This document shows, piece by piece, positions 35,987 to 51,547 of a DNA stretch of 64,000 nucleotides. Under the pieces are notes generated by a model, which made no database searches, had not been told where the DNA came from, and was given only the letters and a program-made list of their open reading frames with translations. Source of the stretch: Candidatus Bathyarchaeota archaeon (GTDB taxonomy: Archaea > Thermoproteota > Bathyarchaeia > TCS64). A program made the translations under genes and the position numbers. Numbering within the stretch: position 1 is the stretch's first letter; every line of letters begins with the position of its first letter. Location of the stretch: the NCBI GenBank assembly GCA_016930055.1, contig JAFGHP010000091.1:2187-66186 (forward strand), written 5' to 3'.

Positions 35987-35989
35987 TTT

Positions 35990-36430
35990 TTGCGAGGACT
36001 AGTTATTGGAATAGGAAACATTCTAAGAACAGATGATGGTGTTGGATTACATACTTTAAAAAAAATAAAGAAGATTCTACCAGACTTTGATACCGTTGAT
36101 GTAGGTTTAGGGAGTATAGAAATTCTTGATCATATACAGGGTTATGATTTGATTTTCATTATTGATGCAATTGAAACTGGTGGAAAACCGGGTACAGTGT
36201 ATAAAATAGATCTTTCAAAAAATCAAGTTCCCCCAGAAATAAATTATAGTCATGGAATCGATATAGTTACAACATTAAAATTAGGGCAATTATTTGTAGA
36301 TAAACTCCCAAAAATAATTTTGTTAGCTGTAGAAGCTGAAGATGTTTTAACATTCAGTGAAGAATTAACACCGAAAGTAAAAAAAGCAATCAAAGAAATT
36401 ATAAAAGAAATTAATAATTATAGTAAATAA
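35990..36430 (+). CDS. Hydrogenase maturation endopeptidase of the HycI/FrhD/HyaD family.
   Basis: GIGNILRTDDGVG fits, the size fits, and it sits directly after the large subunit. TTG start. Confidence 0.75.
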   Translation: MRGLVIGIGNILRTDDGVGLHTLKKIKKILPDFDTVDVGLGSIEILDHIQGYDLIFIIDAIETGGKPGTVYKIDLSKNQVPPEINYSHGIDIVTTLKLGQLFVDKLPKIILLAVEAEDVLTFSEELTPKVKKAIKEIIKEINNYSK

Positions 36431-36538
36431 TATTTAATATTAAAAATGTTTGAAAAATAACCATCTTTTTATTAAAAGCTATTTTATTCAAGTTTTAAAG
36501 CGCTAAATTATTATTATCTTCAAGATATAAATGAGTTT

Positions 36539-36970
36539 ATGGTAAGAATCGAAGGCAATGAATTCCCTGATGATCTTTATTATCACAGAGAACATATGTG
36601 GATTAAAAATGAAGGTTCAATGATTCGAGTCGGATACAATGATTGGGCTCAACAAACCGCCGGAAAAATTTTAAGTCTTAAAGCCAGAAAAGCTGGAGCA
36701 AATATTGATGCAGGAAAAACATTAGGCAGCATTGAAAGTGGAAAATGGGTAGGAAGTTTAAAACTACCAGTTTCTGGTGAGTTAGTACAAATAAATCAAG
36801 AAGTACTTAAAGATCCTTCACTGATTAACAAAGATCCTTACGGTGAAGGTTGGGTTGCATTAATAAAACCCTCAAAATTAGCTGAGGAAATAAAAAACCT
36901 AATTCCTGGAAAAGATAAAGCAACCTTAGAGGCATGGCTTAAAGAAGAAAAAGTGAAGAATAAGCAATAG
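36539..36970 (+). CDS. GcvH-like lipoyl-carrier protein.
   Basis: Aligns along its length with glycine-cleavage H protein. The lipoyl-Lys region is SIESGKWVGSLKLPVSGELV, and the C-terminus contains DPYGEGW. Confidence 0.8.
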   Translation: MVRIEGNEFPDDLYYHREHMWIKNEGSMIRVGYNDWAQQTAGKILSLKARKAGANIDAGKTLGSIESGKWVGSLKLPVSGELVQINQEVLKDPSLINKDPYGEGWVALIKPSKLAEEIKNLIPGKDKATLEAWLKEEKVKNKQ

Positions 36971-37056
36971 GTTGGATAACTTTAGAAGAATGGCGCTTAC
37001 TTGATCTAGGTTATGTTGAGCCCTTTATTGCTCAAACATTCTATGAAGCAGTTGCT

Positions 37057-38061
37057 ATGACTGTGGAGAAAGAGGAGAGTCCAAACACACTAATTTTGTT
37101 ACTACCAGCATCCCCTTACGCATGTATTGGATACCATCAAGATCTTGAAAAAGAAATAGATTTACAATATTTAAAGAAGAAACAAATTCCAGTTATTAGA
37201 AGAAGCCAAGGAGGAGGAGCTACCTACTTAGATAGTAACCAGATTTTTTATCAAATAATCTCTAAAAAAAGTCAGGTTATCCCAAAAAAAATTAATGAAT
37301 TGTTCGAAAAAATGTTAAAAGTAACAGTAGAGACCTATCGAGCCCTTGGAGTACCTGCAGAGTTTAAACCTTTAAATGATGTAATTGTTAACGGAAAAAA
37401 AATTTCAGGGAATGGAGCCAGCAGTCATTCCTCCACAACGATTCTTGTTGGGAATATTATTATAGATTTAAATTATGAGCAAATGGCGCGGGTTCTAAAA
37501 GTATCTGATGAGAAATTTAGAGATAAAATAGCTAAAAGTATGGTGGAGTGGGTTACTAGTTTAAAGCGTGAATTAGATGTAATTCCTTCAGTTGAAATAA
37601 TTAAAGAAAAATATAAGGAAATGTTCCAAAAACAATTAGGTCTTAAATTAATCAAAGCTAGTCCTACAAATGAAGAGTGGAAAATTTTTAATGAACAGAT
37701 TCTACCTCAGAATCTTAGTTATGAATGGTTATATATGGAGCCCCCAATTTCCTTAAAAAGTAGAAGCATAAAAATAGCTCATGAGGTAAAAATAGTCGAA
37801 GTCGAGTATAAAGTTGCGAAACTTATACGAATAAGAGCTGAAATTTTTGGGGAATATATTACGAATATTCAAATACGTGGAGATTTTTTTGTTGTACCTA
37901 AAGAGTCAATAAAAATTCTTGAAGAAAAACTAGTTGGGTGTAAAATCGATGATATGAATATTAAAAAAGTTATTGAAGATTTTTATAAACACAATAATGT
38001 TGATACTCCCGGGATCACTTCAAGAGATTTTATTCAAGCAATTTTAAAAATAAATAAGTGA
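37057..38061 (+). CDS. lplA: Lipoate-protein ligase A-family protein, with catalytic and C-terminal domains.
   Basis: RRSQGGGATYLD is the BPL/LPL catalytic motif. Confidence 0.8.
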   Translation: MTVEKEESPNTLILLLPASPYACIGYHQDLEKEIDLQYLKKKQIPVIRRSQGGGATYLDSNQIFYQIISKKSQVIPKKINELFEKMLKVTVETYRALGVPAEFKPLNDVIVNGKKISGNGASSHSSTTILVGNIIIDLNYEQMARVLKVSDEKFRDKIAKSMVEWVTSLKRELDVIPSVEIIKEKYKEMFQKQLGLKLIKASPTNEEWKIFNEQILPQNLSYEWLYMEPPISLKSRSIKIAHEVKIVEVEYKVAKLIRIRAEIFGEYITNIQIRGDFFVVPKESIKILEEKLVGCKIDDMNIKKVIEDFYKHNNVDTPGITSRDFIQAILKINK

Positions 38062-38143: not shown

Positions 38144-38662
38144 ATGTCAAGCGTTCAAATGATTCTAATTAAAACAGAACTTGGAGATATTAAAGCAGAA
38201 ATAAACCTTGAAAAAGCCCCAATCACATCTACAAATTTCTTACGATATGTAGATAACAGACTCTATGATGGTACAACTTTTTTTAGGGCAGTTACAAAAG
38301 AAGCGTCTTTCCCAAACCAAAATGTACCAATCGAAGTTATTCAAAGTGGTCAAGTACCCAAAGAAAAAGAATATCCACCTATTGAACATGAGACCACAGA
38401 AAAAACAGGTCTAAAACATGTTGAAGGCGCAATTTCAATGTCTAGAGGAAAACCAGGTAGTGCAACGTCAAGTTTCTTTTTCTGTTTAAGGGACGAACCT
38501 GAGTTAGATTATGGTGGACAAAGAAATGCTGATGGGCAAGGTTTTTCAGCTTTCGGAAAGATAGTTTCTGGAATAGAAGTAGCTAAAAAAATACATGAAC
38601 AACCTAGGGAAGGGCAGAGATTAAAGCTACCAATAGGTATAATTTCTATTTCAAGAATCTAA
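38144..38662 (+). CDS. Cyclophilin-type peptidyl-prolyl isomerase, divergent.
   Basis: The blocks KAPITSTNFLRYV...YDGTTFFRAV, GAISMSRG and FSAFGKIVSG match cyclophilin. Confidence 0.7.
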   Translation: MSSVQMILIKTELGDIKAEINLEKAPITSTNFLRYVDNRLYDGTTFFRAVTKEASFPNQNVPIEVIQSGQVPKEKEYPPIEHETTEKTGLKHVEGAISMSRGKPGSATSSFFFCLRDEPELDYGGQRNADGQGFSAFGKIVSGIEVAKKIHEQPREGQRLKLPIGIISISRI

Positions 38663-39114
38663 TTTTTGATTAAATCTTTTATTTTTCCGATCTTTTCAAT
38701 TTTTTCTGGTTTATTATTAAAAATTAAATGTAGATAAATTTCTGTATCAATATGGTTTGGTAATGAGAATAGAAATTCTTTATCACCGAAGTATATTGCT
38801 TCAATTACTAAAGGGAGTTCTCGTTTAAAGATGACTTCTCGAAAATTTTCTGTTCCAAATATTAAACCTCCACTTATATGACAATAAAGATGTAATTTAT
38901 AGTAATTGTCATCTTGGATAAATTCAGCTAAAACCTCATCACGCATTAATCGTGTATATAATCCTGAAATTTGTTTATTATTATATTCTGACGCTATTGT
39001 TAGATATAAGTCGCCACTTAAGTCAGAATGTGTTAAAGTATATTTACGATTAGCGTTAAAACCAAGTTCTTTATTTATTGTTACATGAAGTTTTTGTGGG
39101 TTTAATCTATTCAA
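38659..39114 (-). CDS. Hypothetical protein.
   Basis: ORF only. Confidence 0.3.
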   Translation of the reverse strand: MNRLNPQKLHVTINKELGFNANRKYTLTHSDLSGDLYLTIASEYNNKQISGLYTRLMRDEVLAEFIQDDNYYKLHLYCHISGGLIFGTENFREVIFKRELPLVIEAIYFGDKEFLFSLPNHIDTEIYLHLIFNNKPEKIEKIGKIKDLIKN

Positions 39115-39176: not shown

Positions 39177-41033
39177 TTATATTCTGAGTTTTTTTAGAGC
39201 TTCATCAACGTCTTCAAGTCCTAAAGATTTTAATTCAGTTGAAGTAGGTATACCTTTTTCATCCCAGCCCATAGCTTCATATGCGTCTTTTCTTTCAATC
39301 ATCAATTGGTCTCTATTAGGGGCAGAGCCTTTAAAGGGTCCACTAGGTAATGGGATATACCATCTAGGGGGATTATCATCGTGGATTTCTGGTTCCCAGA
39401 ATAAATCTGGTCCACCTAGCAATAGAACGGCGCGTTGTATCTGTATTATTCTTCTACCATTGATATTAGTCCATTCTTCTGCATTCATATCCCAACCTGT
39501 TACTGCTTTATAGAAGTCCCATTCAATATTTCTTAATCCTGAGGGCCCAGATATTGTGCAATAAACTAAGGAGTCTCCTATTGCGCTTCTGGCTTCACTC
39601 ATAGGAGGCCTAGGGATTGAAGTATGATCACCACCCTGAACTGAAAGTGCGTAGCCCAGATAAGGGAAGTGAGATCCGGTTCTAATTCCATGTGCACCAA
39701 CTTCTATTCCTTTATATTGAATAGCATATTGCAGTGCATCAACATTCTTCATCTTTGATATTTCTATAGCTGCCCTGTAAGTTCCTTCTGCTAAGATATT
39801 ACCAATTCCTCTACGTTCAACGATAAGTTTAACTAAATCTGTCATTGCTTGAGGATCCCCCCATCTGGGTTCAATCCCATCAAAATCTTCTTTAGTTAAT
39901 ATACCCCTCTGGAAAAGTTCTGCAGCAAAACCAATTGTGTTAGCTGAGTTTATGCCACTCATACCAACATCATCTATTAAACTAGACATATATACAACTC
40001 CATCAGGATCAAAAATCCCTAAGTTTGTACCACAATATGCTTCAAGTTCATAATCAGGACTATCTGTAATTGCACCTTTCAAGGGTCCAACTTTTACTAC
40101 ACTTATTTTCATACAGGATTTACAGCACCCATAATCACTCCAAAAACGCTTTACCCAGTTTCTAGTTTCATATTGTACTATCCCCATACTTTTTTTGTTG
40201 TGCCATTCTTCCTGCCAGTTTCTAACTGGTTCAGCACTACTTTGGGCACCTGTAGAATACCCCATCGAAGCAGTTCCCCAGTTACGTTCTTGGGGATTAG
40301 AAAATTGAGTACTCCAACATTTATGAATAAGTTCAGTAAGCATTTTCTGATCATATACATCAGGTAATTTACCAGTTCCTTTAGCTACAAGCGCTTTAAG
40401 ATTTTTTGAGCCCATTACTGCACCATAACCACCGTAGCCACAAGCGTGAGTCCATTTCTGCATAATTGCTGCGTTTCTAACTAAATTTTCCCCGGCTTGA
40501 CCAATATATAGTAGAGCAGGTTCTTTCCATAAACCATAGTTTGGTTTTCTTTTCTGAAGAAGCTCTCTTACTTCTTTATTTACTTCTTTTATAGTATTTT
40601 TTCCATCTAACCCCCATAGTTTTGAGGCATCTCTAATTTCAACGCCGTCATCAGTTACGAGAAGATATACCGGCGTCTCAGATTTACCTTTAACAATAAT
40701 ACCATCATAACCAGCACATTTCAGTTCCATTGGAAATTCACCCGCAGCAGTAGAACCAACAATTCCATTCGAAAGAGGAGATTTTCCTGTGCAACAAATC
40801 CTCATACCATAAATATATCCAGTTAAAGGCCCTGTAAGTGCAAGTAGTAAATTATCTGGACCCAAGGGATCAATGGTCTGCCATTTTGATCCTAAACGAT
40901 CCCATAATATTTTTACACCTAGACCTCGTCCACCAACATATTCTTTTAAAATTTTTTCATTTATATGTAAATCAGAAATTTTACTTATCGAAAGATCTAC
41001 TTCAGCAATTTTTCCAGTGTATCCATATGTCAT
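39177..41033 (-). CDS. aor: Tungsten-containing aldehyde:ferredoxin oxidoreductase-family protein.
   Basis: The N-terminus YGYTGKIAEVDLS...GGRGLGVKIL closely matches AOR. 618 aa. Confidence 0.85.
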   Translation of the reverse strand: MTYGYTGKIAEVDLSISKISDLHINEKILKEYVGGRGLGVKILWDRLGSKWQTIDPLGPDNLLLALTGPLTGYIYGMRICCTGKSPLSNGIVGSTAAGEFPMELKCAGYDGIIVKGKSETPVYLLVTDDGVEIRDASKLWGLDGKNTIKEVNKEVRELLQKRKPNYGLWKEPALLYIGQAGENLVRNAAIMQKWTHACGYGGYGAVMGSKNLKALVAKGTGKLPDVYDQKMLTELIHKCWSTQFSNPQERNWGTASMGYSTGAQSSAEPVRNWQEEWHNKKSMGIVQYETRNWVKRFWSDYGCCKSCMKISVVKVGPLKGAITDSPDYELEAYCGTNLGIFDPDGVVYMSSLIDDVGMSGINSANTIGFAAELFQRGILTKEDFDGIEPRWGDPQAMTDLVKLIVERRGIGNILAEGTYRAAIEISKMKNVDALQYAIQYKGIEVGAHGIRTGSHFPYLGYALSVQGGDHTSIPRPPMSEARSAIGDSLVYCTISGPSGLRNIEWDFYKAVTGWDMNAEEWTNINGRRIIQIQRAVLLLGGPDLFWEPEIHDDNPPRWYIPLPSGPFKGSAPNRDQLMIERKDAYEAMGWDEKGIPTSTELKSLGLEDVDEALKKLRI

Positions 41034-41560
41034 TTTGTTAATTCCTCTCCCTTTTCTCCGTAAAGGTTTATAGCAATATTTTTGGTAAGTTCTTCTGGAT
41101 TGATAGAATAAAGATCATAATTAATTGATGTACTTCTAGTTCCCATCATAATGCATCCATAGCTACATGCTTTAACACATTCAGGTTCTCCACCACAAAG
41201 ATCACAAATCACTATATGGTTTTTTTCTGGATGCATGTGTGGGACTTGTCCAGGGCATGCTTTTATACAAGCACCACAAGCTATGCATTTTTCTTCATCT
41301 ACAATAACTGCTCCCGTTTTCTCATCAACCGATAAAGCTTTTGTAGGGCAAACTCCAACACAGGGATAATCACTACATTGGGTGCATACATGTGGAACTT
41401 CTGCACCTGGTACCAACATGAACACTCTAATCCTGGAGGACTCGGGCCAGATACGTCCCTCGTGTTTAAGACTGCAAGCTATTTCACATAGTCTACAACC
41501 ACTACACTTTAAATAATCTCTAACAATCCAAGGTTTCTGAATAGGCATTGGTCTGCTCAA
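41030..41560 (-). CDS. 4Fe-4S poly-ferredoxin-like electron-transfer subunit, AorA-type partner of AOR.
   Basis: Four Cys boxes are present: CSGCRLCEIAC, CTQCSDYPCVGVCP, CIACGACIKACP and CDLCGG..CVKAC. It overlaps aor by 4 nt. Confidence 0.75.
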   Translation of the reverse strand: MSRPMPIQKPWIVRDYLKCSGCRLCEIACSLKHEGRIWPESSRIRVFMLVPGAEVPHVCTQCSDYPCVGVCPTKALSVDEKTGAVIVDEEKCIACGACIKACPGQVPHMHPEKNHIVICDLCGGEPECVKACSYGCIMMGTRSTSINYDLYSINPEELTKNIAINLYGEKGEELTK

Positions 41561-43532: not shown

Positions 43533-44261
43533 ATGACTATAATTCATAAAAAGCATAGAGGTATTACATCTCTTGTAATTATAGTTTTTATGTTAGTGTT
43601 TTTATCTTCTGCTTCAGCTGTCTACCTATTTACTGATGTTTTTAAACCTAAAAATGAAGAAATGACTGGTTCATCATTAGATTCTATTAAAGTTTTAAAT
43701 GATGCTTTCAATGATCTTGAAAAAAGTGGATGTACTATTGTTGAAGTGGAATCAATGCCAAGTGGTTCAATAGAATTGTTAAATTCATATTCAGATTTTA
43801 AAAATTCGCTAAAAACACAAACAGTATATTGTTTTGCCGAATCAAATAGATGTTCCATTTTTTTTGAAAAAGATAATAAAATATTTGTATGGTCTCCTCA
43901 AAAATGGGAAAAAATAAAGTTAATTAAAGAAAGTTGCGACCTTCAGACTCCAGGTTGGTTAATAACACTAGAAATTAAAAATTCCGGTAACGGTCCCATA
44001 CAAATTTCAAAAATTTATGTAGCAGGCGACGAAATTGCTGGTATTAATTTTAATACTGATAATTATGTCCCACTTTCTACTTCTTGTACTATTAAAAATA
44101 ATGTGAGTTTAGAACCTAATGAAAAAATTATTTTAGAAATTAGAGTAAGTAATTATTATAAATATCTCAAAATTGGCTCAGTGTGTGAAATAAAAATATA
44201 TACAATATCAGGTTACTCTATTAAAAGAATAATAAATTTTGTATCAAATAATAATAACTAA
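43533..44261 (+). CDS. Putative type IV pilin-like surface protein with a class III signal-peptide-like N-terminus.
   Basis: N-terminal basic stretch HKKHRG followed by a hydrophobic helix ITSLVIIVFMLVF. Confidence 0.35.
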   Translation: MTIIHKKHRGITSLVIIVFMLVFLSSASAVYLFTDVFKPKNEEMTGSSLDSIKVLNDAFNDLEKSGCTIVEVESMPSGSIELLNSYSDFKNSLKTQTVYCFAESNRCSIFFEKDNKIFVWSPQKWEKIKLIKESCDLQTPGWLITLEIKNSGNGPIQISKIYVAGDEIAGINFNTDNYVPLSTSCTIKNNVSLEPNEKIILEIRVSNYYKYLKIGSVCEIKIYTISGYSIKRIINFVSNNNN

Positions 44262-44337
44262 TCATTCTTATGAAATTTCATAATATATATTTTCTATCCA
44301 TAATAGGTTAATTAAAGGATTTATTAAATTTTCATTA

Positions 44338-45504
44338 ATGAGACAGAAATTATTGTTAGTAATCGGATTATTGCTTGGAGTTCTATTAACAATCGCCTGC
44401 TCTAATTTTATTGATACTAATGTTTTTAATTTTAATGGGAAAAAAGTAAATGAACTCACAGAAATTAATGAGATTTTAACAAATGAATTAAATTATCTTA
44501 GAGAACAATATGAAGAACTTTTAGAAAATTATACTCAACTCCAGTTAAAATATTATATGAACATTAGTCAAGAGGATAAAAGTTTAATAAATAATGAATT
44601 AATTTATGAAGGAAAAGGCATTAATAGAAATTATTCTTGGTATTTTAATTATAATAAATGGACATTATCATTGTCAATTCCTGAAGAATTATATATTTAT
44701 TATAAAACTCTATCAAGAACCCCTTCCTCAGATTATTCCATATATGTTACACATCCTTATGATGATGTATATATTGACTTATTGTTAGTAAAATTAAATG
44801 AAATATCTGTTTTAAATGGGTTTTCTGATTTTAATAAAATTGGTTTAGTAATTTCATTTATTCAAAGCCTTCAATATACATCTGATTCAATATCTACTGG
44901 ATATGATGAATACCCACGTTACCCAATAGAGACTTTAGTAGATTATGGTGGAGACTGTGAGGATACATCAATTTTAGCAGCAGCACTTTTTAAAGCTCTG
45001 GGAAAAGAAGTCGTTTTATTAATGTTGCCAAATCATCTTGCAGTGGGAATTGCTGAAGTAACAAGTCAAGGATATTATTACCAATATAATGGAAAAGACT
45101 ACTATTATCTGGAAACAACTGGTGAAGGCTGGGATATTGGAGAATTACCTGAAGAATATCAAGAGTCTACAGCTAAAATTTTTGAACTTCTTCCTATACC
45201 TGTTATTTTTCATACTTGGGTTTCAACTTGGGAATTCTCAAAAATAATACTTACAATAACAGTTGAAAACTTAGGAACAGCTATAGCTCAAAATTATTAT
45301 GTTGAAGCAGGCTTTGATGCAGGTAATGATTCTTGGTGGAATTCTCAGAAAAGCCAGTATTTTAATATAACAATTGATGGAAAAATTAAATTAACATTAG
45401 TTCTTCAACCACCTAAAAATCAATATACAAGACTAATTGTACAGATTTTAAATTCAGAGAGTAAATGTGTTGATATCAGTTACTCTAAATGGTTTACTAC
45501 TTAA
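44338..45504 (+). CDS. Transglutaminase-like (papain-fold) domain lipoprotein.
   Basis: Signal peptide with a lipobox-like LLTIAC. DYGGDCEDTS carries the Cys of the core, and PNHLAVG the His. Confidence 0.6.
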   Translation: MRQKLLLVIGLLLGVLLTIACSNFIDTNVFNFNGKKVNELTEINEILTNELNYLREQYEELLENYTQLQLKYYMNISQEDKSLINNELIYEGKGINRNYSWYFNYNKWTLSLSIPEELYIYYKTLSRTPSSDYSIYVTHPYDDVYIDLLLVKLNEISVLNGFSDFNKIGLVISFIQSLQYTSDSISTGYDEYPRYPIETLVDYGGDCEDTSILAAALFKALGKEVVLLMLPNHLAVGIAEVTSQGYYYQYNGKDYYYLETTGEGWDIGELPEEYQESTAKIFELLPIPVIFHTWVSTWEFSKIILTITVENLGTAIAQNYYVEAGFDAGNDSWWNSQKSQYFNITIDGKIKLTLVLQPPKNQYTRLIVQILNSESKCVDISYSKWFTT

Positions 45505-45519
45505 TCTAAATCATTTTGT

Positions 45520-48500
45520 TTAAGTTAAAACAAATAAATCATTATTAAAAATTATTTTACCCTCACTTATCATATCTTCGAGAATATTTGAAATTGTTTC
45601 AAATGTTTTCTGAGTTTTTTTTATTTTATAAATTTTTAGCGTTTGTTGAATTAATGAGTTTATACCTAATCCTAAACTGTGTTCTAATATTTTTTCAATA
45701 GCTATCATAATTTCTTCAGGTGCAATATACTCAATTTTACGAATTGTATTTTTTCTTCCCTCTTTGGGGATTCTAAGTTTAGCTATTTTATTTTTTGATG
45801 CCCACAAAAAATCTTCACTTTTAAAGATTTTATCTTTTTTTATTAACTCGTTAAGAGTATTATAAAAAATATTTTTATGTTTAAAAGTTACTGGTTTGAC
45901 TTTTAAAAGATTATTTGAACGTTTATAAGCTAATTCTTGATGTATTGGTTCTTCTACTTCAACTAATTTTGGTAATAATTGTAAAATTTCTTGTTTATAA
46001 AAGCGTTCATAAAGGGTTTTTTGATCTTTTTTTATTTTATTAAATGTAATTTTTGGAGTAATATCAGTTATAACATATTCTACTGCTCCTGGTAGTTTAG
46101 AACTTTCAAGTTCTGTAATTATTTTATAATTGATTTTATTTATTGTTTCTTTTTTGTTTTTACTAATATTTAATTTTCTGATATTTCTTGATTCTTCAGC
46201 TTGTTTTAATGCTTGAGAAAGACGATCTATTTCAGAAGAATGTCTTATAACCCATTCTGGTGACCAAATTCTATAAATGTTCCAACCCATATTTTCCAAT
46301 ATTTGTATTCTTAACCGATCTCTATCTCTTACAGTTGGAATGGATGAATAGTATTCTCCATCAATTAAAATTCCTAAAATGTATTTTTCTGGCTCTTCTT
46401 TAATTTTCACACCAATATCTATTTTAAGTCTACTTTCACCAATATTTGTAACAGCTACATATCCAAGTTTCCGTATCTCTTCTACAACTTCTTTTTCAAT
46501 ATCTGTCACGTCTTCGGGTTTAGATATTATTGCATTGAACCTTTTTTGTAGTTGAGTCTCAGCATATTGTAAATATTCATGTAAGCATTTTATACCTAAA
46601 GAATTTGTAGAATTAACATTAATATCGCTTGATTTAATTGAACTAACAAGAATTACTTTTTCTTTTGCTCGAGTAATTGCTACATTTAAGCGACGTTCAC
46701 CACCTTCTTTGTTTAATGGACCAAAATTAAGGGTCATAATTTTATTTTTATCGTAACCGTATCCTACGCTAATTATCATTACATCTCTTTCATCACCTTG
46801 AACATTCTCAAGATTCTTAACGAAAAAACCTTGTAACCTATCTTCTTGAATGAATTTTCCATAGTCACCATTATTTTTTAAACGGTTTTCAATTTCATCT
46901 TTAACACAGTTCATCTGGTTTATGCTAAATGTTACAACTCCTAGAGACTTATTAGGAGTTTTTTTAAAGTGATTGAACACTAAATCTGCGACAACCTCAG
47001 CTTCAGTGAAATTAGTTCTAGTTCCTCCTCGATCATATAAGCCATTTTGAACATGAACAAAGTCTATACCTAAATCTTCTCCTTGATGTATTGCTGAAGG
47101 AAAGAGAATTAATTTTCCATCATAAAATTTGTTATTTGAAAAAGAAATTAAAGAATCATGTTTGCTTCGATAATGCCATTGTAACATTTTAGTTGGTAAG
47201 CCAATTGACATACACTCATCAAGTACACTATCATAGACACCGATATCTTCACTATTTTCATCCCAATCATTATCTGTATCAGCTACATATTGGAAGAATG
47301 GGGTAGGAGGAAGTTGTTTATTATCTCCAGCAACTATTAGACAGTCTCCTCTATAAATTGCTCCAACAGAGTCTTCAGTGAATATTTGTGATGCTTCATC
47401 AAATATGACTAAATCAAAATGTAATCTTTCGGGAATAACGAATTGACTTACACTTATTGGACTCATTAATAAACAGGGTTTTAATTTTCGTATAAGATTA
47501 GGTATTTTATCAAAAAGATGACGTATAGGCATTTGTCTCCTTTTCTTTGCAGCTTCTCTCAGGAGAATGCTGATTTCAGAATCTGATGCTTCTACAAAAA
47601 TACCCTGAGGTTTATTTGTATTAGCAATTTCAATAATCTTATTTGGAGATGTTTCAATTAAGACTTTATCAAGATTAATAAAATCCTGAACAATATAATT
47701 GTGATCTTTAACTCTAAAATTTTTTAAATTAATATCGTCTTCAAGAAATTGTGTAAGCAAACCATTAAAAATTGATTTCTTAAAAACATCAACAATAATA
47801 TTTTTATCAATTTTTTTCTCGTAAATCTGTGTTAAAAACTGATCAAATCCTTCATCACATAGTTTTTTGGATGTATCATTAAAATCAACCCAGTATTGAA
47901 GATCGTCTATTCTTGATAAAAATTGATCTGCCACATTAAGAACTTCATATAAATACAAATCATTTGGATTATTATTCCAAAATTGTTTTGTAAAACGATA
48001 ATTTAATTCGTTAATTGATTGTTTAATTAATTTTAGATTCTGTTCTAATTTCAATTGGATCCTATTTAATGAAGGATCTGTAACTTTTTGTATTAGTTCA
48101 TTTGAAGGAGGAGAATCTAATAATAATAAAAAGCTGCGGGTCCAATCAATGCTTTCAATAACTTTTGTCCAATCTGTAGAAATTCCGTGATAAAGATTTC
48201 CATAAATTTGCTTTAAACTAAACGTTTTTTTAGCTTCATCAGATTCAAAGTCTTGTATTTTTTCTGTTTTTTTGAGGTCATCAATCAATTGGTTAAAACT
48301 TGAAGGTAAATCAGATATTTTAGTAATTAAAGCTGGCTGACTTGTATTATTTAAAATCTTAAGAAGCAGATTAAGTTCTGTTGCCCATTTTTCTAATTCA
48401 TATAGGCTTGCTTCAGTTAAGGGGGTATTGGTATTAGGGATTTTTATTGGTAATAATTCTTTTAGATTTTTTTTATCAGCCATCCAAGAATTCAGATTAC

Positions 48501-51096
48501 TTTTCAGTGTTTTTACTTGTTCTAATAATTCTTTTTTTGGAACTGTGCCTACACATATATTATCACGTAGTTTTTTTGAAGCTCTAGTTTTTTTCAGAAT
48601 TTTAAGAATATATTTTGCGTTTTTAATAGCTTCCTCTATACTTTGGAATTTTATATTCTCTTTACTATAATAAACTCCTAGAATTTTTTTATTTATTTCT
48701 TGTTCTTTTTCAACCTTCTCGTAGAGTTTCTTTAATTCTTTTACTGAAATTAAATCTTGAATTATTGAATCAGGTATATTACCGTTTTTAGTAACTTTAG
48801 ATATTTCTTCTTTAATTCTGTAATATGAAGGTCTGAAATATCTAAAGAGTGATGACCCTGGTCCTTCTAGATATGCAATTATGTTTTCGAGGTCAAGATC
48901 TAGTATATTATCTTTATAAATATCTAATTTTTTTTCTAATTCATTTTTACGATCATGATCTTTCTTTATGTTTTGATAGATGTTTTCAACTTTTTTTATA
49001 GTTGATCGTTCCAGCCAACTTGGTTCAGGTTTATTTGGAGATTCGCATAGTTCAGTTAATTTTAAGATTTTTCTAATTTGATTGATAGAAAGATCATCTG
49101 TTTTTAAATCTAAATTATAAATAATGTTTTGTGTTGAATTTATCCAAAAAGGTATATATTTTAAAGTATTTTGGAGAAAATTCATTAAATTAACTATATC
49201 TTTCAATAAACCTCCATCATCATGTTTAGGATTTTGGAGGAGGTGCTTTGCATTAATCCAAGCTTCTAAAATTTTGTCTGAAGACCCTTTAGGTAATGAA
49301 CGAAATCTACTATCATATTTATTTTCTAGATCTTTTCTTAAAGTCCAGTATTGGTCCCACTCAATTTTAGTTTTTTCTGTTTCTTGTTTAAGTTTGAATA
49401 AATCAGTGGTTGTTAACCATTCGGTTGGTGGGTATGGAGTTGAATTTATTAAATTTGCTAGCCTTTGAAGTTTATCATATTCTTCAATTTTTTCAGGGAG
49501 TTCCAAATTAAGTATTGAACAGAATTCTTCAGTTTCTAATAGTAGAGAATTCGATGATGCAATTATTGTGGTGAGAAGATTAACCCAATCAGAACGTACC
49601 TCATTAGAATATTTCTGTACTTTCGCATCTTTCCATGGGAAAGAAGATCCCTCCTCAATAACTATCCAACTGTTTGCTAACCTTCTTACTTGTTCTTCTA
49701 AAATAAAAAATGTTTTTTGATTAAATTTATCGAAATCAGTGTATCCGGAGGGTATTTCTGGAATATGTCTTAATTTAGTAAGTTCATTTAAAATTTGATA
49801 AGCTGAATAATTTGATGGGTCCCTTAATTTGTGGAGGGAGGTAACATATTCATTCAATTGTATTTTACGAGTTTTTAATCTCTCAATATCTTCGGGTGAA
49901 CTAATTTTACCAGGTTTTAGATGCTCAGTTAGTACTCTGTTTAATTCATTAATAACCTCACGTTTATTTGCTTTGTAACTATGAAGTTCTAGGCAATATT
50001 CCTCAAGGTTTCTATCTTTTAACCTATTATACACTACTTCTAATGCAGCCATTTTTTCACTTACGAATAGAACGCTTTTACCTGCAGCAACGTATTCAGA
50101 GATAATATTTGCTATTGTCTGACTTTTTCCCGTTCCTGGTGGTCCATGCATAATGAAAGATTGACCTTGAAGAGCATATTGTATACATAGTTGTTGACTA
50201 CTATCAGCGTCAAGAATTTGATAGGTTTTATTTAGATCATTTTTTTGGTCTAAGTCTTCAATTTTGGGTAAATTTTTTTTAATTAAACCTTCAATGGGAA
50301 TTTTTGATAAGGATTTTATTATTGGGTGTTTCTCTATTAAATTAAAATTTTCTGTAAGATCTTGATATATTGCTAATTTTGAAAAAGAAAATAAACCTAA
50401 GTAACAAGAATTTTCAATTATCCAATTATATTCATTTAAAATTTGCTTTAAATTTATCAAATAAAACGAAGGTTGGAATTCATCATTCTCGTTTATTAAA
50501 GGGGGAAGATTAATATCATAATCATATTTTAGTTTAAGTTTCAAAGCAGGATTTACTATAAGATCTTCTTCTACTGGAGGGACTTTTATTTTGTATGGAG
50601 ATCTTGTTGATTCTTTAATTAACTCAATAGGAGTCATTAAAATTGGTGAAAACGTTTCTTGTTTACTTTCCTTATCAATCCATTTTAAGATTCCATATGT
50701 AATATAAAGAATTCTTATTCCTCTCTCCGTGTATTCAGAGGAAGATCGTCGTTTTAAATTCTTCAAGATCCTATCAATTTGTGTTGCATCAGACCATCCA
50801 GGAAGTAGAACTAAATTTTTCCTAGGTTTACTTTTATCTGAATAAAAATTATTAAGTGGTGGTTGCCATAGTTCCCAATCTTTTTCTTTTATTATTAATC
50901 TATCAAATATAATATCTATATCAGGTGATACAATGTTTATAGTTGAGGTTTTTGTTGGTTGAAAATATATTGATCTATTTCTCCTTGAAAGATCTATTAG
51001 CTTTAATTTCCATTCATCAATTCGTTTAGCAACCTGTTGAGGTTCTTGGGATAGTAATGCAACCACCTCTAGAAACGGAATAGTTATTCTCACCAA
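45520..51096 (-). CDS. Giant protein of 1858 aa with four regions. They are an N-terminal DUF4011-like region, a Upf1-like SF1 helicase (AAA_11/AAA_12), a Vsr/DUF559 endonuclease-like domain and a C-terminal DUF3320-like region. The architecture is Hhe-like.
   Basis: Walker A is HGPPGTGKSQT. Motif II/III-like blocks are VAGDNKQLPP and GDERDVMIISVGYG, and VAITRAKEKVILV follows. A downstream block (...GYVAVTNIGESRLKIDIGV...MGWNIYRIWSPEWV) is Vsr/DUF559-like. Confidence 0.8.
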   Translation of the reverse strand: MVRITIPFLEVVALLSQEPQQVAKRIDEWKLKLIDLSRRNRSIYFQPTKTSTINIVSPDIDIIFDRLIIKEKDWELWQPPLNNFYSDKSKPRKNLVLLPGWSDATQIDRILKNLKRRSSSEYTERGIRILYITYGILKWIDKESKQETFSPILMTPIELIKESTRSPYKIKVPPVEEDLIVNPALKLKLKYDYDINLPPLINENDEFQPSFYLINLKQILNEYNWIIENSCYLGLFSFSKLAIYQDLTENFNLIEKHPIIKSLSKIPIEGLIKKNLPKIEDLDQKNDLNKTYQILDADSSQQLCIQYALQGQSFIMHGPPGTGKSQTIANIISEYVAAGKSVLFVSEKMAALEVVYNRLKDRNLEEYCLELHSYKANKREVINELNRVLTEHLKPGKISSPEDIERLKTRKIQLNEYVTSLHKLRDPSNYSAYQILNELTKLRHIPEIPSGYTDFDKFNQKTFFILEEQVRRLANSWIVIEEGSSFPWKDAKVQKYSNEVRSDWVNLLTTIIASSNSLLLETEEFCSILNLELPEKIEEYDKLQRLANLINSTPYPPTEWLTTTDLFKLKQETEKTKIEWDQYWTLRKDLENKYDSRFRSLPKGSSDKILEAWINAKHLLQNPKHDDGGLLKDIVNLMNFLQNTLKYIPFWINSTQNIIYNLDLKTDDLSINQIRKILKLTELCESPNKPEPSWLERSTIKKVENIYQNIKKDHDRKNELEKKLDIYKDNILDLDLENIIAYLEGPGSSLFRYFRPSYYRIKEEISKVTKNGNIPDSIIQDLISVKELKKLYEKVEKEQEINKKILGVYYSKENIKFQSIEEAIKNAKYILKILKKTRASKKLRDNICVGTVPKKELLEQVKTLKSNLNSWMADKKNLKELLPIKIPNTNTPLTEASLYELEKWATELNLLLKILNNTSQPALITKISDLPSSFNQLIDDLKKTEKIQDFESDEAKKTFSLKQIYGNLYHGISTDWTKVIESIDWTRSFLLLLDSPPSNELIQKVTDPSLNRIQLKLEQNLKLIKQSINELNYRFTKQFWNNNPNDLYLYEVLNVADQFLSRIDDLQYWVDFNDTSKKLCDEGFDQFLTQIYEKKIDKNIIVDVFKKSIFNGLLTQFLEDDINLKNFRVKDHNYIVQDFINLDKVLIETSPNKIIEIANTNKPQGIFVEASDSEISILLREAAKKRRQMPIRHLFDKIPNLIRKLKPCLLMSPISVSQFVIPERLHFDLVIFDEASQIFTEDSVGAIYRGDCLIVAGDNKQLPPTPFFQYVADTDNDWDENSEDIGVYDSVLDECMSIGLPTKMLQWHYRSKHDSLISFSNNKFYDGKLILFPSAIHQGEDLGIDFVHVQNGLYDRGGTRTNFTEAEVVADLVFNHFKKTPNKSLGVVTFSINQMNCVKDEIENRLKNNGDYGKFIQEDRLQGFFVKNLENVQGDERDVMIISVGYGYDKNKIMTLNFGPLNKEGGERRLNVAITRAKEKVILVSSIKSSDINVNSTNSLGIKCLHEYLQYAETQLQKRFNAIISKPEDVTDIEKEVVEEIRKLGYVAVTNIGESRLKIDIGVKIKEEPEKYILGILIDGEYYSSIPTVRDRDRLRIQILENMGWNIYRIWSPEWVIRHSSEIDRLSQALKQAEESRNIRKLNISKNKKETINKINYKIITELESSKLPGAVEYVITDITPKITFNKIKKDQKTLYERFYKQEILQLLPKLVEVEEPIHQELAYKRSNNLLKVKPVTFKHKNIFYNTLNELIKKDKIFKSEDFLWASKNKIAKLRIPKEGRKNTIRKIEYIAPEEIMIAIEKILEHSLGLGINSLIQQTLKIYKIKKTQKTFETISNILEDMISEGKIIFNNDLFVLT

Positions 51097-51547
51097 ATAA
51101 GACTTTATTTTATGTCAAAAAGTATTTAGGAATAGTTTTTATAATCAAATGTTTAAATTCTATTATTTTATGTATAAAATATTGATGTATTCATATAATA
51201 TTTGGTATAAATTTACTTAATATGCAAAAAAGTGGTAAATATTTACTAAAGATTTTGTTTTAATTATTTTATTTTTTCTTAAAACAATATTTAAATTAAT
51301 TTATGAAGTTTAAACATAAATACGTTTTTATTATCAAAAAAAATATGTTAAAATGATTATTAATTTTATTTTGAATTTATATAATTGTATAAATTTTTCA
51401 GCTTATCAAATAATTGATAAAAAAAAGTATCTTGTTATTTTTAAATTAATTAGATTTTTTTTTAATTTATTTATTTTTAAAATTTTTAAAATACTAGCAA
51501 GTCTTTTAACTATTATATGCTTGTGATTGTTAGAGAGGTAAAATCTA
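51097..51547. promoter_or_regulatory. Divergent AT-rich intergenic region of about 450 bp between the Hhe-like gene on the minus strand and tldD on the plus strand.
   Basis: Greater than 85% AT. A GAGAGGT Shine-Dalgarno sits before the tldD ATG. Confidence 0.3.

What the first reader, a model, noticed from the sequence alone, without database searches (positions are those of the whole stretch)
45520..51096. Giant 1858-aa single-gene helicase-nuclease with the Hhe defence-system architecture
Domain order read from the sequence has four parts. The N-terminus has a DUF4011-like region. A Upf1-like SF1 helicase carries the HGPPGTGKSQT Walker A, a long insertion and motifs VAGDNKQLPP / GDERDVMIISVGYG / VAITRAKEKVILV. 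A Vsr/DUF559 restriction-endonuclease-like domain follows (...KIDIGV...MGWNIYRIWSPEWV). A DUF3320-like region forms the C-terminus. This is the composition I recall for HheA, the helicase plus Vsr-endonuclease single-gene antiphage system of Gao et al. 2020. Archaeal representatives are poorly studied. It sits in the most AT-rich part of the window and is flanked by spacers of about 450 and 15 bp.
Basis: partly seen in the sequence, partly recalled or inferred. Interest (0 to 1): 0.65.

Follow-up and report, generated by a model that had tools for sequence, protein, structure and literature searches.

The report
Archaeal Hhe/ProA-type helicase-nuclease gene
This is a real, intact 1858-residue gene in a Bathyarchaeota chromosome that fuses a motor protein (helicase) to a DNA-cutting domain; it belongs to a large, already catalogued family of single-gene candidate antiviral proteins, so it is a new archaeal member of a known kind rather than a new kind of system.

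Summary
The ORF at 45520-51096 (-) is real. Pfam finds DUF4011, a split Upf1-like SF1 helicase (AAA_11/AAA_12) and a Vsr-family nuclease. The nuclease model is MTES_1575, not DUF559. The DUF3320 match is sub-threshold (14.5 bits against a cutoff of 25).

The protein hits Hhe models strongly but fails NCBIfam's Hhe cutoff (782 of 2000 bits). It scores higher against two sister models: NCBIfam ProA (1232 of 1500 bits) and PADLOC candidate PDC-S37 (1312 bits, against 521 for Hhe). It is therefore a divergent member of the DUF4011 helicase-nuclease superfamily, on the ProA/PDC-S37 side, and not Hhe in the strict sense.

The host is a Bathyarchaeota MAG. Relatives are patchy across Bacteria and Archaea, occur on 578 plasmids, and sit in a different neighbourhood each time. 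No partner gene is conserved. The window shows no defence island, integrase, tRNA or flanking repeats, and the low GC is only modest.

An antiviral function is inferred from homology and was not shown. The verdict is a new member of a known kind, of low to moderate interest. One detail may deserve follow-up: a family-typical nuclease glutamate appears to have moved from E-x-D-G to D-G-E in this clade.

The parts
45520..51096 (-). Complete gene for the 1858-aa helicase-nuclease. The stop codon is 45520-45522. The start is TTG 51096 or GTG 51093.
50212..51096 (-). N-terminal alpha/beta domain, aa 1-295, containing Pfam DUF4011 (aa 32-189 = nt 50530-51003). Its function is unknown.
   Evidence: Pfam E 1.2e-25. 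AlphaFold2 model with pLDDT 78 and pTM 0.72. Foldseek found no significant match to any solved structure; the best hit had E 6e-3 and TM about 0.1.
49891..50205 (-). First half of helicase domain RecA1 (AAA_11, N-terminal part, aa 298-402). It carries Walker A GPPGTGKS (aa 318-325) and motif Ia LFVSEKMAA (aa 343-351).
   Evidence: PDB matches to IGHMBP2 and Upf1 in this stretch
47485..49890 (-). All-alpha insertion of about 800 aa (aa 403-1204) that splits RecA1. It sits in the stretch of the AAA_11 profile (positions about 118-211) that this protein leaves unmatched.
   Evidence: The AAA_11 profile is matched at positions 3-118 and then 211-253. AlphaFold2 on aa 385-1205 gives pLDDT 84 and pTM 0.43 and is entirely helical. 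Foldseek returns only generic coiled-coil arms such as MukB, JetC and SMC (E 1e-4, TM about 0.1). Conserved W, P and G positions run through the insertion across homologues.
47230..47484 (-). Second half of RecA1 (aa 1205-1289). It carries motif II DEAS (within VIFDEASQ, aa 1230-1237) and motif III VAGDNKQLPP (aa 1255-1264).
46639..47229 (-). Helicase domain RecA2 (AAA_12, aa 1290-1486). It carries motifs IV (HYRS), V (GDERDV) and VI (GGERRLNVAITRAK).
   Evidence: Pfam E 9.9e-19; PDB matches to Sen1, Upf1 and Dna2
46207..46497 (-). Vsr-family PD-(D/E)xK nuclease domain (Pfam MTES_1575, aa 1534-1630). It contains D1560, D1579-G1580-E1581, Y1583 and RDRDRLR...GW..RIW.
   Evidence: Pfam E 9.9e-25. 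These residues are conserved in 77 relatives. The Glu position is analysed. The family is described as a Vsr-family REase in PMC3710099. A weak match to RAP-domain chains appears.
45523..46206 (-). C-terminal tail (aa 1631-1858) with a degenerate DUF3320-like segment (aa 1695-1726 = nt 45919-46014). DUF3320 is reported to overlap winged-helix domains.
   Evidence: DUF3320 scores 14.5 bits against a cutoff of 25. Homologues and a ProA-passing protein have DUF3320 at the equivalent place. The wHTH assignment comes from PMC3710099.
51097..51547 (.). 451-bp spacer of 14% GC between the helicase gene and the divergently transcribed TldD gene. It presumably holds both promoters.
   Evidence: The promoter role is an inference; no archaeal promoter tool was available.
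43533..45504 (+). Two unannotatable genes convergent with the helicase gene: 242 aa with an N-terminal membrane segment, and 388 aa with a lipobox-like signal. They travel with the helicase in its closest relative. They are probably neighbours and not parts of the system.
   Evidence: No Pfam, PADLOC, PHROG or NCBIfam hit. The same order is found on L089, at 58% and 60% identity. They are absent next to more distant helicase homologues.

Best explanation
The gene encodes a stand-alone, single-polypeptide helicase-nuclease of the DUF4011 superfamily. That superfamily contains the validated E. coli system Hhe, the NCBI-named anti-phage protein ProA and the PADLOC candidate PDC-S37. This protein sits on the ProA/PDC-S37 side and lies in the chromosome of a Bathyarchaeota archaeon.

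Shown here:
- The gene is intact, with a complete set of SF1B (Upf1-like) helicase motifs.
- It has a Vsr-family nuclease domain that keeps the family-invariant residues.
- An all-helical insertion of about 800 aa splits RecA1.
- It has an N-terminal DUF4011 domain that matches no solved structure.
- It has a degenerate DUF3320/wHTH-type tail.
- It has its own 451-bp upstream region and no conserved partner gene.

Inferred mechanism: the protein acts alone against invading DNA from viruses or plasmids. The ATP-driven SF1B motor loads on abnormal DNA structures produced by virus replication or recombination, such as ssDNA or free ends. Translocation then brings the Vsr-type endonuclease to cut that DNA, or licenses it to cut. 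The C-terminal winged-helix region helps bind DNA. The long helical arm mediates self-association or keeps the nuclease inhibited until a trigger appears.

The trigger logic is borrowed from E. coli Hhe. There, knockouts of T7 DNA-metabolism genes behave as loss of triggers, and a nuclease point mutant loses defence.
For: Family assignment:
- PADLOC PDC-S37 scores 1312 bits (E = 0) and Hhe 521 bits.
- NCBIfam ProA scores 1232 bits and Hhe 782 bits.
- An Atlantibacter protein that passes the ProA cutoff (1642 bits) has the same five-part Pfam architecture.
- The window protein aligns end to end with relatives down to 26-35% identity.

Intact catalytic equipment.

Single-gene unit: neighbours differ in every homologue locus examined. 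The ProA-passing gene sits alone between mtlADR-yibL and lldPRD.

Accessory and mobile behaviour of the family:
- At least 590 matching stretches in GTDB species genomes, patchily spread over many bacterial and archaeal phyla.
- 578 plasmid records carry a relative, 219 of them conjugative. These include Haloferax, Halomontanus and Halalkalicoccus plasmids.
- Copies on Ralstonia megaplasmids are interrupted by IS elements.
- The helicase is absent from the TldD-PmbA locus of four relatives.
- The closest homologue has a different upstream flank.

Mechanistic precedent for Hhe:
- It carries a Vsr nuclease, is active against lambda, T3, T7 and PhiV-1, and is abolished by E1731A (10.1101/2022.06.16.496414).
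- T7 class II DNA-metabolism genes and Bas63 g40 act as triggers (10.1101/2024.10.10.617714).
- A phage-encoded inhibitor of Hhe exists (10.1101/2024.04.14.589459).
Against: - No experiment exists for any archaeal member, and I found no paper describing ProA or PDC-S37. PADLOC PDCs are stated to be largely unvalidated (PMC12988326).
- The protein is below both NCBIfam equivalog cutoffs.
- The window shows no defence-island context: 0 of 8 neighbours hit PADLOC. The flanks are housekeeping genes: TldD/PmbA, an M3 peptidase, an aminotransferase, AOR and an RNA polymerase cluster.
- There is no integrase, tRNA or bounding repeat, and the compositional deviation is modest.
- Full-length copies are common in Bathyarchaeia (the best 120 clusters). 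A DUF4011 gene is a core gene in P. aeruginosa (PMC10250203). A resident cellular role is therefore not excluded.
- The Glu of the family's E-x-D-G motif is Leu here, so nuclease activity is assumed and not certain.
Confidence: 0.62

Rival explanations
1. It is a resident genome-maintenance enzyme of Bathyarchaeia. On this reading it would be a Dna2-like or AddAB-like repair or replication-restart helicase-nuclease that only shares ancestry with defence proteins.
For: - The flanks are housekeeping genes and there are no adjacent defence genes.
- Many full-length, well-conserved copies occur in Bathyarchaeia, with strong conservation of motifs.
- The helicase core also resembles Dna2.
- A DUF4011 gene is core in P. 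aeruginosa (PMC10250203).
Against: - The genomic position differs in every relative examined.
- The family is frequent on conjugative plasmids and is often IS-disrupted.
- The distribution across phyla is patchy.
- The closest named relatives are anti-phage proteins.
Confidence: 0.2
2. It is an orthologue of E. coli Hhe (HheA) in the strict sense.
For: The domain order is the same, and the Hhe HMMs are matched over aa 106-1656 (E 1.7e-234; PADLOC Hhe E 1.3e-156).
Against: - It scores 782 bits against the curated cutoff of 2000.
- ProA and PDC-S37 score much higher, and do so in all five relatives tested.
- The last ~90 positions of the Hhe profile (1706-1797) are not matched, whereas the ProA match runs to profile position 1901 of 1903 (protein aa 1825 of 1858).
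Confidence: 0.05
3. It is a Upf1/Sen1/IGHMBP2-type RNA helicase involved in RNA surveillance or transcription termination.
For: The only solved structures with sequence similarity are IGHMBP2, Sen1, Upf1 and Dna2. TIGR00376 is hit at E 1.2e-27.
Against: - TIGR00376 scores 96.6 bits against a cutoff of 348.9.
- The similarity is confined to helicase motifs.
- The protein is fused to a Vsr-family DNA endonuclease and a DUF3320/wHTH tail.
- There is no conserved position and the distribution is not core-like.
Confidence: 0.03
4. It is a family member whose nuclease is crippled by loss of the E-x-D-G glutamate. It would then act only as a sensor or translocase, or be on the way to decay.
For: Position 1577 is Leu, whereas 59 of 77 relatives, including the ProA-passing protein, have Glu there.
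Against: - The ORF is intact over 5.6 kb.
- D1560, D1579, G1580, Y1583 and the RDRDRLR...GW..RIW block are all kept.
- Within the close clade, every sequence that lacks an acidic residue at 1577 has one at 1581: 24 with 1581 only, 7 with 1577 only, 1 with both and 0 with neither. This looks like a relocated catalytic residue and not a loss.
- Fourteen more distant relatives lack both acidic residues and are still full-length.
Confidence: 0.08

Closest known systems
ProA (NCBIfam NF058533, 'anti-phage protein ProA')
   Same: - It is the best-scoring curated family (1232 bits), and the match runs to profile position 1901 of 1903, protein aa 1825 of 1858.
- A protein that passes the cutoff (Atlantibacter, 1642 bits) has the same architecture: DUF4011, AAA_11, AAA_12, MTES_1575 and DUF3320, in about 1850 aa.
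- That protein also sits as a lone gene among housekeeping genes.
   Different: - The window protein is below the equivalog cutoff of 1500.
- Best-HSP (BLASTP) identity to that protein is only about 30%, over the C-terminal half (aa 965-1856).
- DUF3320 is degenerate (14.5 bits against 52 bits).
- The nuclease Glu is shifted (E-C-D-G-S in ProA, L-I-D-G-E here).
- The host is an archaeon.
- I could not find the publication behind the name, so what was shown experimentally for ProA is unknown to me.
PDC-S37 (PADLOC-DB v2 phage defence candidate, single gene; PDLC05009)
   Same: It is the top PADLOC hit, with E = 0 and 1312 bits, reaching the end of the model (positions 635-1541 of 1550 in the best stretch). 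It is a single-gene candidate, as found here.
   Different: The model is about 300 positions shorter than the protein, because the N-terminal and insertion region is longer here. PDCs are computational candidates, most of them unvalidated (PMC12988326). No text on PDC-S37 itself was found.
Hhe / HheA
   Same: It is a single-gene system with a DUF4011 N-terminus, an SF1 helicase and a Vsr-type nuclease. The HMMs match over most of the length. It is the only relative with published phenotypes, so it is the mechanistic model used here.
   Different: It scores 782 bits against a cutoff of 2000 and is outscored by ProA and PDC-S37. The last ~90 positions of the Hhe profile (1706-1797) are not matched. 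Hhe is from E. coli, while this protein is from Bathyarchaeota.
Upf1-like SF1B helicases with solved structures (IGHMBP2, Upf1, Sen1, Dna2)
   Same: The helicase motifs and the RecA1/RecA2 core are shared. Dna2 also combines an SF1B helicase with a PD-(D/E)xK nuclease.
   Different: Only the motor is shared (E 1e-13 to 1e-7). The 800-aa helical insertion, the DUF4011 domain, the C-terminal Vsr-type nuclease and the wHTH tail are absent from these proteins.
MTES_1575-type giant proteins (Anantharaman et al. 2013, PMC3710099)
   Same: They share the Vsr-family REase domain and DUF3320/wHTH modules fused to an SF1 helicase.
   Different: Those proteins also carry HEPN and transglutaminase domains, and neither is detected here.

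Membership tests
Hhe (strict sense) | Score at or above the NCBIfam NF042953 equivalog cutoff (2000 bits) | tested here: not met
   781.7 bits
Hhe (strict sense) | Hhe is the best-matching defence model | tested here: not met
   PADLOC gives PDC-S37 1312 bits and Hhe 521 bits. NCBIfam gives ProA 1232 bits and Hhe 782 bits.
Hhe (strict sense) | Architecture: DUF4011, SF1 helicase and Vsr-type nuclease in one polypeptide | tested here: met
   Pfam finds DUF4011, AAA_11, AAA_12 and MTES_1575. MTES_1575 is described as a Vsr-family REase (PMC3710099).
Hhe (strict sense) | Single-gene system with no obligatory partner | tested here: met
   No neighbour is conserved across homologue loci. Only the closest relative shares the two downstream genes.
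Hhe (strict sense) | Protects cells against phage, dependent on the nuclease | not testable with these tools
   Reported only for E. coli Hhe.
ProA (NCBIfam NF058533) | Score at or above the equivalog cutoff (1500 bits) | tested here: not met
   1231.8 bits. Bathyarchaeal, Bacteroidales, Xanthomonas and Planctomycetota relatives also fall short (1238-1487 bits). An Atlantibacter protein passes at 1642 bits.
ProA (NCBIfam NF058533) | Same domain architecture as a protein that passes the cutoff | tested here: met
   L059 has DUF4011 at 26-203, AAA_11, AAA_12 at 1290-1476, MTES_1575 at 1522-1619 and DUF3320 at 1683-1728. The window protein has them at 32-189, 298-402, 1290-1486, 1534-1630 and 1695-1726.
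ProA (NCBIfam NF058533) | C-terminal DUF3320 domain above the Pfam gathering score | tested here: inconclusive
   14.5 bits against a cutoff of 25. The position is equivalent to DUF3320 in P0022 (26.2 bits) and L059 (52 bits).
ProA (NCBIfam NF058533) | Experimentally shown anti-phage activity of the family | not testable with these tools
   No paper on ProA was found in the library.
PDC-S37 (PADLOC candidate) | Significant hit to PDLC05009 as the best PADLOC model, in a single gene | tested here: met
   E = 0, 1312.4 bits, top hit. The full PADLOC system-calling rules were not run.
Vsr / DUF559 nuclease | Pfam DUF559 match | tested here: not met
   No DUF559 hit at E<=0.1. MTES_1575 is matched instead at E 9.9e-25. 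A conserved RDRDRLR...GW..RIW block is present, and from memory it resembles the corresponding segment of E. coli Vsr; I did not test that resemblance.
Upf1/Sen1/IGHMBP2 RNA helicase orthologue | Score at or above the TIGR00376 cutoff (348.9 bits), with similarity beyond the motor | tested here: not met
   96.6 bits. PDB matches are limited to helicase motifs.
Defence island / mobile island | Adjacent known defence genes, integrase, tRNA target or bounding repeats | tested here: not met
   0 of 8 neighbours hit PADLOC. There are no tRNAs in the window, no integrase among the neighbours, and only low-complexity imperfect repeats.
Defence island / mobile island | Absent from the same position in related genomes | tested here: inconclusive
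   The TldD-PmbA loci of four relatives (82-59% identity) lack it, and the closest helicase homologue has a different upstream flank. However, synteny around TldD-PmbA is poor in general, and no genome of the same species was available.

The most novel reading that the evidence does not exclude
The Bathyarchaeial clade to which this protein belongs may be a functionally distinct archaeal subfamily and not just a divergent ProA. Two observations point that way.

First, the family's E-x-D-G glutamate has been replaced by a hydrophobic residue, and a glutamate has appeared two residues after the invariant Asp (D-G-E). This would be a relocated catalytic residue, and it could change metal geometry or substrate preference.

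Second, in the two closest genomes the gene travels as a three-gene AT-rich block with two exported or membrane proteins of unknown family. That block could be a unit linking a surface event to the cytoplasmic helicase-nuclease.
Probability: 0.1. Interest if true: 0.5.

Novelty: new member of a known kind. Interest (0 to 1): 0.3.

Why it matters
Archaeal antiviral defence beyond CRISPR and restriction-modification is poorly charted (PMC12988326). None of the papers I found reports a test of an archaeal member of this helicase-nuclease family. The locus adds a clean, intact Bathyarchaeota example and shows that the archaeal copies group with ProA/PDC-S37 and not with Hhe. That matters for annotation, because automated pipelines will leave this protein as a 'DUF4011 domain-containing protein'. 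No solved structure matched the N-terminal domain or the 800-aa helical arm. The apparent relocation of a nuclease glutamate gives a concrete mutagenesis test. None of this changes what is known about how such systems work.

Tried and rejected
- Literature: searches for PDC-S37 and ProA found nothing relevant. The origin of the ProA name and any experiments behind it remain unknown to me.
- Helical insertion: Foldseek returned only non-specific coiled-coil matches at TM about 0.1. I do not read these as homology to SMC proteins.
- ProA in E. coli: a DNA search of 5,426 E. coli genomes with the ProA-passing Atlantibacter gene found nothing. I could not obtain RefSeq context or an E. coli Hhe sequence, so no tree including Hhe seeds was built.
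- Island boundaries: the search for att-like direct repeats gave only imperfect AT-rich low-complexity pairs, which I rejected.
- Promoters: the sigma-70 promoter and terminator scanner was not used, because the host is an archaeon and the spacers are 14-20% GC.
- The two downstream genes: I considered them as system components and rejected the idea. They are conserved only in the closest relative, are absent beside homologues at 51-55% identity, and are convergently transcribed.
- Viral origin: PHROGs gave only a helicase-core match to a family of unknown function. The phage collection held one fecal contig with a full-length relative.
Full report
**1. The observation**

The window contains one uninterrupted reading frame at 45520..51096 on the minus strand. 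It encodes 1858 aa counted from a TTG. Public gene callers begin one codon later, at GTG 51093. An identical 1857-aa protein (P0001) is on record from a Logan assembly. The gene has 28% GC, so stop codons are frequent by chance, and a 5.6-kb open frame there cannot be accidental.

The two spacers are 451 bp (51097-51547, 14% GC) and 15 bp (45505-45519).

**2. Domain content**

Pfam gives four matches:
- DUF4011, aa 32-189 (E 1.2e-25)
- AAA_11, aa 298-402
- AAA_12, aa 1290-1486 (E 9.9e-19)
- MTES_1575, aa 1534-1630 (E 9.9e-25)

The AAA_11 profile is matched at positions 3-118 and resumes at positions 211-253 about 800 residues later.

- DUF559 gives no hit. The nuclease model that matches is MTES_1575, which its describers define as a new Vsr-family restriction-endonuclease-fold domain (PMC3710099). 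The block RDRDRLR...GW..RIW is present. From memory it resembles the equivalent segment of E. coli Vsr, but I did not test that resemblance.
- DUF3320 is only a sub-threshold match (14.5 bits, cutoff 25, aa 1695-1726). Full-length homologues at 39-46% identity and a ProA-passing protein do carry DUF3320 at the corresponding place. The tail is therefore homologous but degenerate. The same 2013 paper states that DUF3320 overlaps winged-helix domains.

**3. Which family**

Against PADLOC-DB the best model is the single-gene candidate PDC-S37 (E = 0, 1312 bits). Hhe comes second at 521 bits. Against NCBIfam the best model is 'anti-phage protein ProA' (1232 bits, cutoff 1500), followed by Hhe (782 bits, cutoff 2000). 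The protein is thus below both curated equivalog thresholds and is much nearer to ProA than to Hhe.

I checked whether this pattern is peculiar to the window protein by scanning five diverse relatives.
- All five score higher on ProA than on Hhe.
- Only an Atlantibacter protein passes the ProA cutoff (1642 bits).
- Xanthomonas (1487), a Bathyarchaeote (1394), Dysgonomonas (1358) and a Planctomycete (1238) fall short.

The Atlantibacter ProA has the same five-part Pfam architecture and almost the same length as the window protein. It sits alone between the mannitol operon with yibL and the lldPRD operon. ProA therefore also looks like a single-gene insertion among housekeeping genes.

The IGHMBP2-family model reaches 96.6 bits against a cutoff of 348.9. 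Solved structures match only the helicase motifs (E 1e-13 to 1e-7; IGHMBP2, Dna2, Sen1, Upf1). No structure of any Hhe or ProA relative is in the PDB copy.

**4. Host and distribution**

The divergently transcribed neighbour, a TldD protease, is 100% identical to an NCBI protein from 'Candidatus Bathyarchaeota archaeon'. The far flank holds the archaeal RpoA'-L7Ae-NusA cluster. The window is therefore a Bathyarchaeota MAG.

The best 120 protein clusters related to the helicase are nearly all full-length (about 1850-1900 aa). Those that carry a source name are from Bathyarchaeota. The nearest relative is only 63% identical.

In one genome per GTDB species, at least 590 stretches encode a relative. 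They come from Bathyarchaeia, methanogens (Methanobrevibacter, Methanosarcina, Methanobacterium and others), Planctomycetota, Bacteroidales, Clostridia, Chloroflexota, Xanthomonas, Sphingomonas, Actinoplanes and more. This is a patchy pattern that crosses both domains.

Plasmids and phages:
- 578 plasmid records carry a relative, 219 of them predicted to be conjugative. They include haloarchaeal plasmids.
- Several Ralstonia megaplasmid copies are broken by IS elements.
- Only one phage-collection record, a fecal contig, has a near-full-length copy.

**5. Context and the island question**

The immediate neighbours are as follows.
- On one side: TldD/PmbA, an M3 peptidase, an MFS transporter and the RNA polymerase cluster.
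- On the other side: two genes that hit nothing in Pfam, PADLOC, PHROGs or NCBIfam (242 aa and 388 aa), then an aminotransferase, a ferredoxin and an aldehyde:ferredoxin oxidoreductase.

None of eight neighbours hits a PADLOC model. The window has no tRNA or Rfam match, and no integrase appears among the neighbours. Repeats around the block are only imperfect AT-rich low-complexity pairs.

Gene-by-gene composition shows that the helicase and the two unannotated genes form a contiguous low-GC block. Their GC is 0.26-0.28 against 0.334 +/- 0.036, and their GC3 is 0.14-0.16 against 0.204 +/- 0.037. Several other genes in the window are just as AT-rich.

Homologues at 51-55% identity lie in completely different neighbourhoods and have no shared partner gene. 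The closest homologue (63%, L089) keeps the same three-gene order: helicase, then a 390-aa gene at 60% identity, then a 244-aa gene at 58% identity. Its upstream flank, however, is a kinase-like gene and not TldD.

Conversely, the TldD-PmbA pair is found in four relatives (82, 66, 62 and 59% identity; the last lies on a 2.3-Mb contig). None of them has the helicase in the DNA available around TldD-PmbA (10 kb each side where the contig allows; only 0.4-0.7 kb upstream in the closest relative), and the upstream gene is different each time.

This is what an accessory, relocatable gene would show. But synteny around TldD-PmbA is poor in general at these distances, and I had no genome of the same species. 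I therefore rate the island test as inconclusive and not as positive.

**6. Anatomy beyond Pfam**

An AlphaFold2 model of aa 1-295, built with 16 aligned sequences, has pLDDT 78 and pTM 0.72. It is a mixed alpha/beta domain that follows a long N-terminal helix. Foldseek against the PDB found nothing significant; the best hit had E 6e-3 and TM about 0.1.

A model of the insertion (aa 385-1205) has pLDDT 84 but pTM 0.43. It consists entirely of helices, many of them 25-35 residues long. The local structure is confident and the global arrangement is not. Foldseek returns only generic coiled-coil arms (MukB, JetC, SMC) at TM about 0.1. I take this as 'elongated helical arm' and not as homology. 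Conserved Trp, Pro and Gly positions run through the insertion in all aligned homologues, so it is a structured and selected part of the protein.

In the nuclease, several features are conserved across 77 relatives: D1560, D1579-G1580, Y1583, the RDRDRLR block and the GW..RIW block.

One position differs. In 59 of the 77 relatives, the ProA-passing protein among them, the invariant Asp is preceded by Glu (E-C-D-G). The window protein has L-I-D-G-E. Among 32 close Bathyarchaeial homologues the pattern is fully complementary:
- 24 lack an acidic residue at 1577 and have one at 1581.
- 7 have one at 1577 and lack one at 1581.
- 1 has both.
- None has neither.

Residues two before and two after the Asp on a beta-strand would point to the same side. 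A relocated catalytic glutamate is therefore a reasonable reading. It is essentially one clade-level change, and 14 more distant relatives lack both acidic residues, so it remains a hypothesis.

**7. Likely mechanism**

Shown: an intact SF1B-type motor, an intact-looking Vsr-family nuclease, a DNA-binding-type tail, no partner gene and its own upstream region.

Inferred: the protein acts alone on invading DNA. The only relatives with published phenotypes are E. coli Hhe proteins.
- The system protects against lambda, T3, T7 and PhiV-1, not against T4, and loses activity with a nuclease point mutation, E1731A (10.1101/2022.06.16.496414).
- In T7, knockouts of seven genes of the class II DNA-metabolism cluster behave as loss of triggers. 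The authors take this to mean that Hhe responds to what those genes do and not to the proteins themselves. In phage Bas63, g40 is toxic only when Hhe is present (10.1101/2024.10.10.617714).
- Phages encode inhibitors of Hhe.

By analogy I propose three steps. The helicase loads on replication or recombination intermediates of the invader. ATP-driven translocation then delivers or licenses the endonuclease. The helical arm and DUF4011 provide autoinhibition or oligomerisation.

My confidence that the protein belongs to this superfamily is high, about 0.9. My confidence that it functions in defence in this archaeon is moderate, about 0.6. The chief rival is a resident genome-maintenance role. 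That view is supported by the housekeeping context, by the abundance of full-length copies in Bathyarchaeia, and by the fact that a DUF4011 gene is a core gene flanking a defence hotspot in P. aeruginosa (PMC10250203).

**8. Comparison, novelty and verdict**

The protein works like Hhe and ProA and shares their architecture. It fails the curated membership thresholds of both, and it is best described as a divergent archaeal member of the ProA/PDC-S37 branch.

PADLOC's PDC entries are computational candidates, most of them unvalidated (PMC12988326). I found no paper on PDC-S37 or ProA. The family is already represented in PADLOC and NCBIfam, and public records already hold this very protein.

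This is therefore a new member of a known kind. Interest is low to moderate, at 0.3. What would reward follow-up:
- the absence of any tested archaeal member of the family
- the N-terminal domain and helical arm, which matched no solved structure
- the possible relocation of a catalytic residue

Noticed in passing
window 46348-46374 (aa 1575-1583, GILIDGEYY): The family-typical E-x-D-G glutamate is Leu here, and a Glu follows the invariant Asp-Gly (D-G-E). Among 32 close homologues the two positions are perfectly complementary: 24 with 1581 only, 7 with 1577 only, 1 with both and 0 with neither. This suggests a relocated catalytic residue. Fourteen distant relatives, such as Methanobrevibacter with GITTDGKMY, have neither.
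   Followed up: partly
window 44338-45504 (+), 388 aa: This gene is convergent with the helicase gene and separated from it by 15 bp. It has a lipobox-like N-terminus (LLTIAC) and a GGDCEDTS motif that is reminiscent, from memory, of transglutaminase-like cysteine proteases. It has no hit in Pfam, PADLOC, PHROGs or NCBIfam. A 60%-identical copy sits in the same position next to the closest helicase homologue (L089 6346-7518).
   Followed up: partly
window 43533-44261 (+), 242 aa: This protein has an N-terminal membrane segment and no family hit. It has the lowest GC of any gene in the window (0.261, GC3 0.136). A 58%-identical copy is conserved in L089 (7587-8321) as the third gene of the same block.
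   Followed up: partly
window 38659-39114 (-), 151 aa: This is a full-length match to Pfam Staygreen (PF12638, E 2e-32), a family I know as the plant chlorophyll Mg-dechelatase, here in an archaeal MAG. It is also one of the most AT-rich genes in the window (GC 0.263).
   Followed up: no
window 34529-38061: A NiFe-hydrogenase large-subunit-like gene lies next to a glycine-cleavage H protein and a lipoate-protein ligase. An aldehyde:ferredoxin oxidoreductase with its ferredoxin follows at 39177-41560. These were noted only as metabolic context.
   Followed up: no
L003 945-4386 (JGI 3300044800 contig, upstream of helicase homologue P0011): A 684-aa SMC_N/AAA_15/AAA_23 ATPase is followed by two small unannotated ORFs about 6 kb from the helicase homologue. 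It may be another defence-type system. This was the only defence-like neighbour seen in any homologue locus.
   Followed up: no
Ralstonia megaplasmids, e.g. CP052087.1 463193-471214 (H41), CP009763.1 (H22/H45): The ProA-like gene is split into 2-3 pieces by IS5 or IS701 family insertions in several strains, while other strains keep it intact.
   Followed up: no
L059 9587-15151 (Atlantibacter sp., NZ_DAMBQK010000019.1): The only protein I found that passes the ProA cutoff is inserted alone between yibL and lldP. A Fic-domain gene lies about 4 kb downstream. No similar DNA exists in 5,426 complete E. coli genomes.
   Followed up: partly
window 1-64000: No tRNA gene and no Rfam family at gathering threshold was found anywhere in 64 kb.
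   Followed up: no
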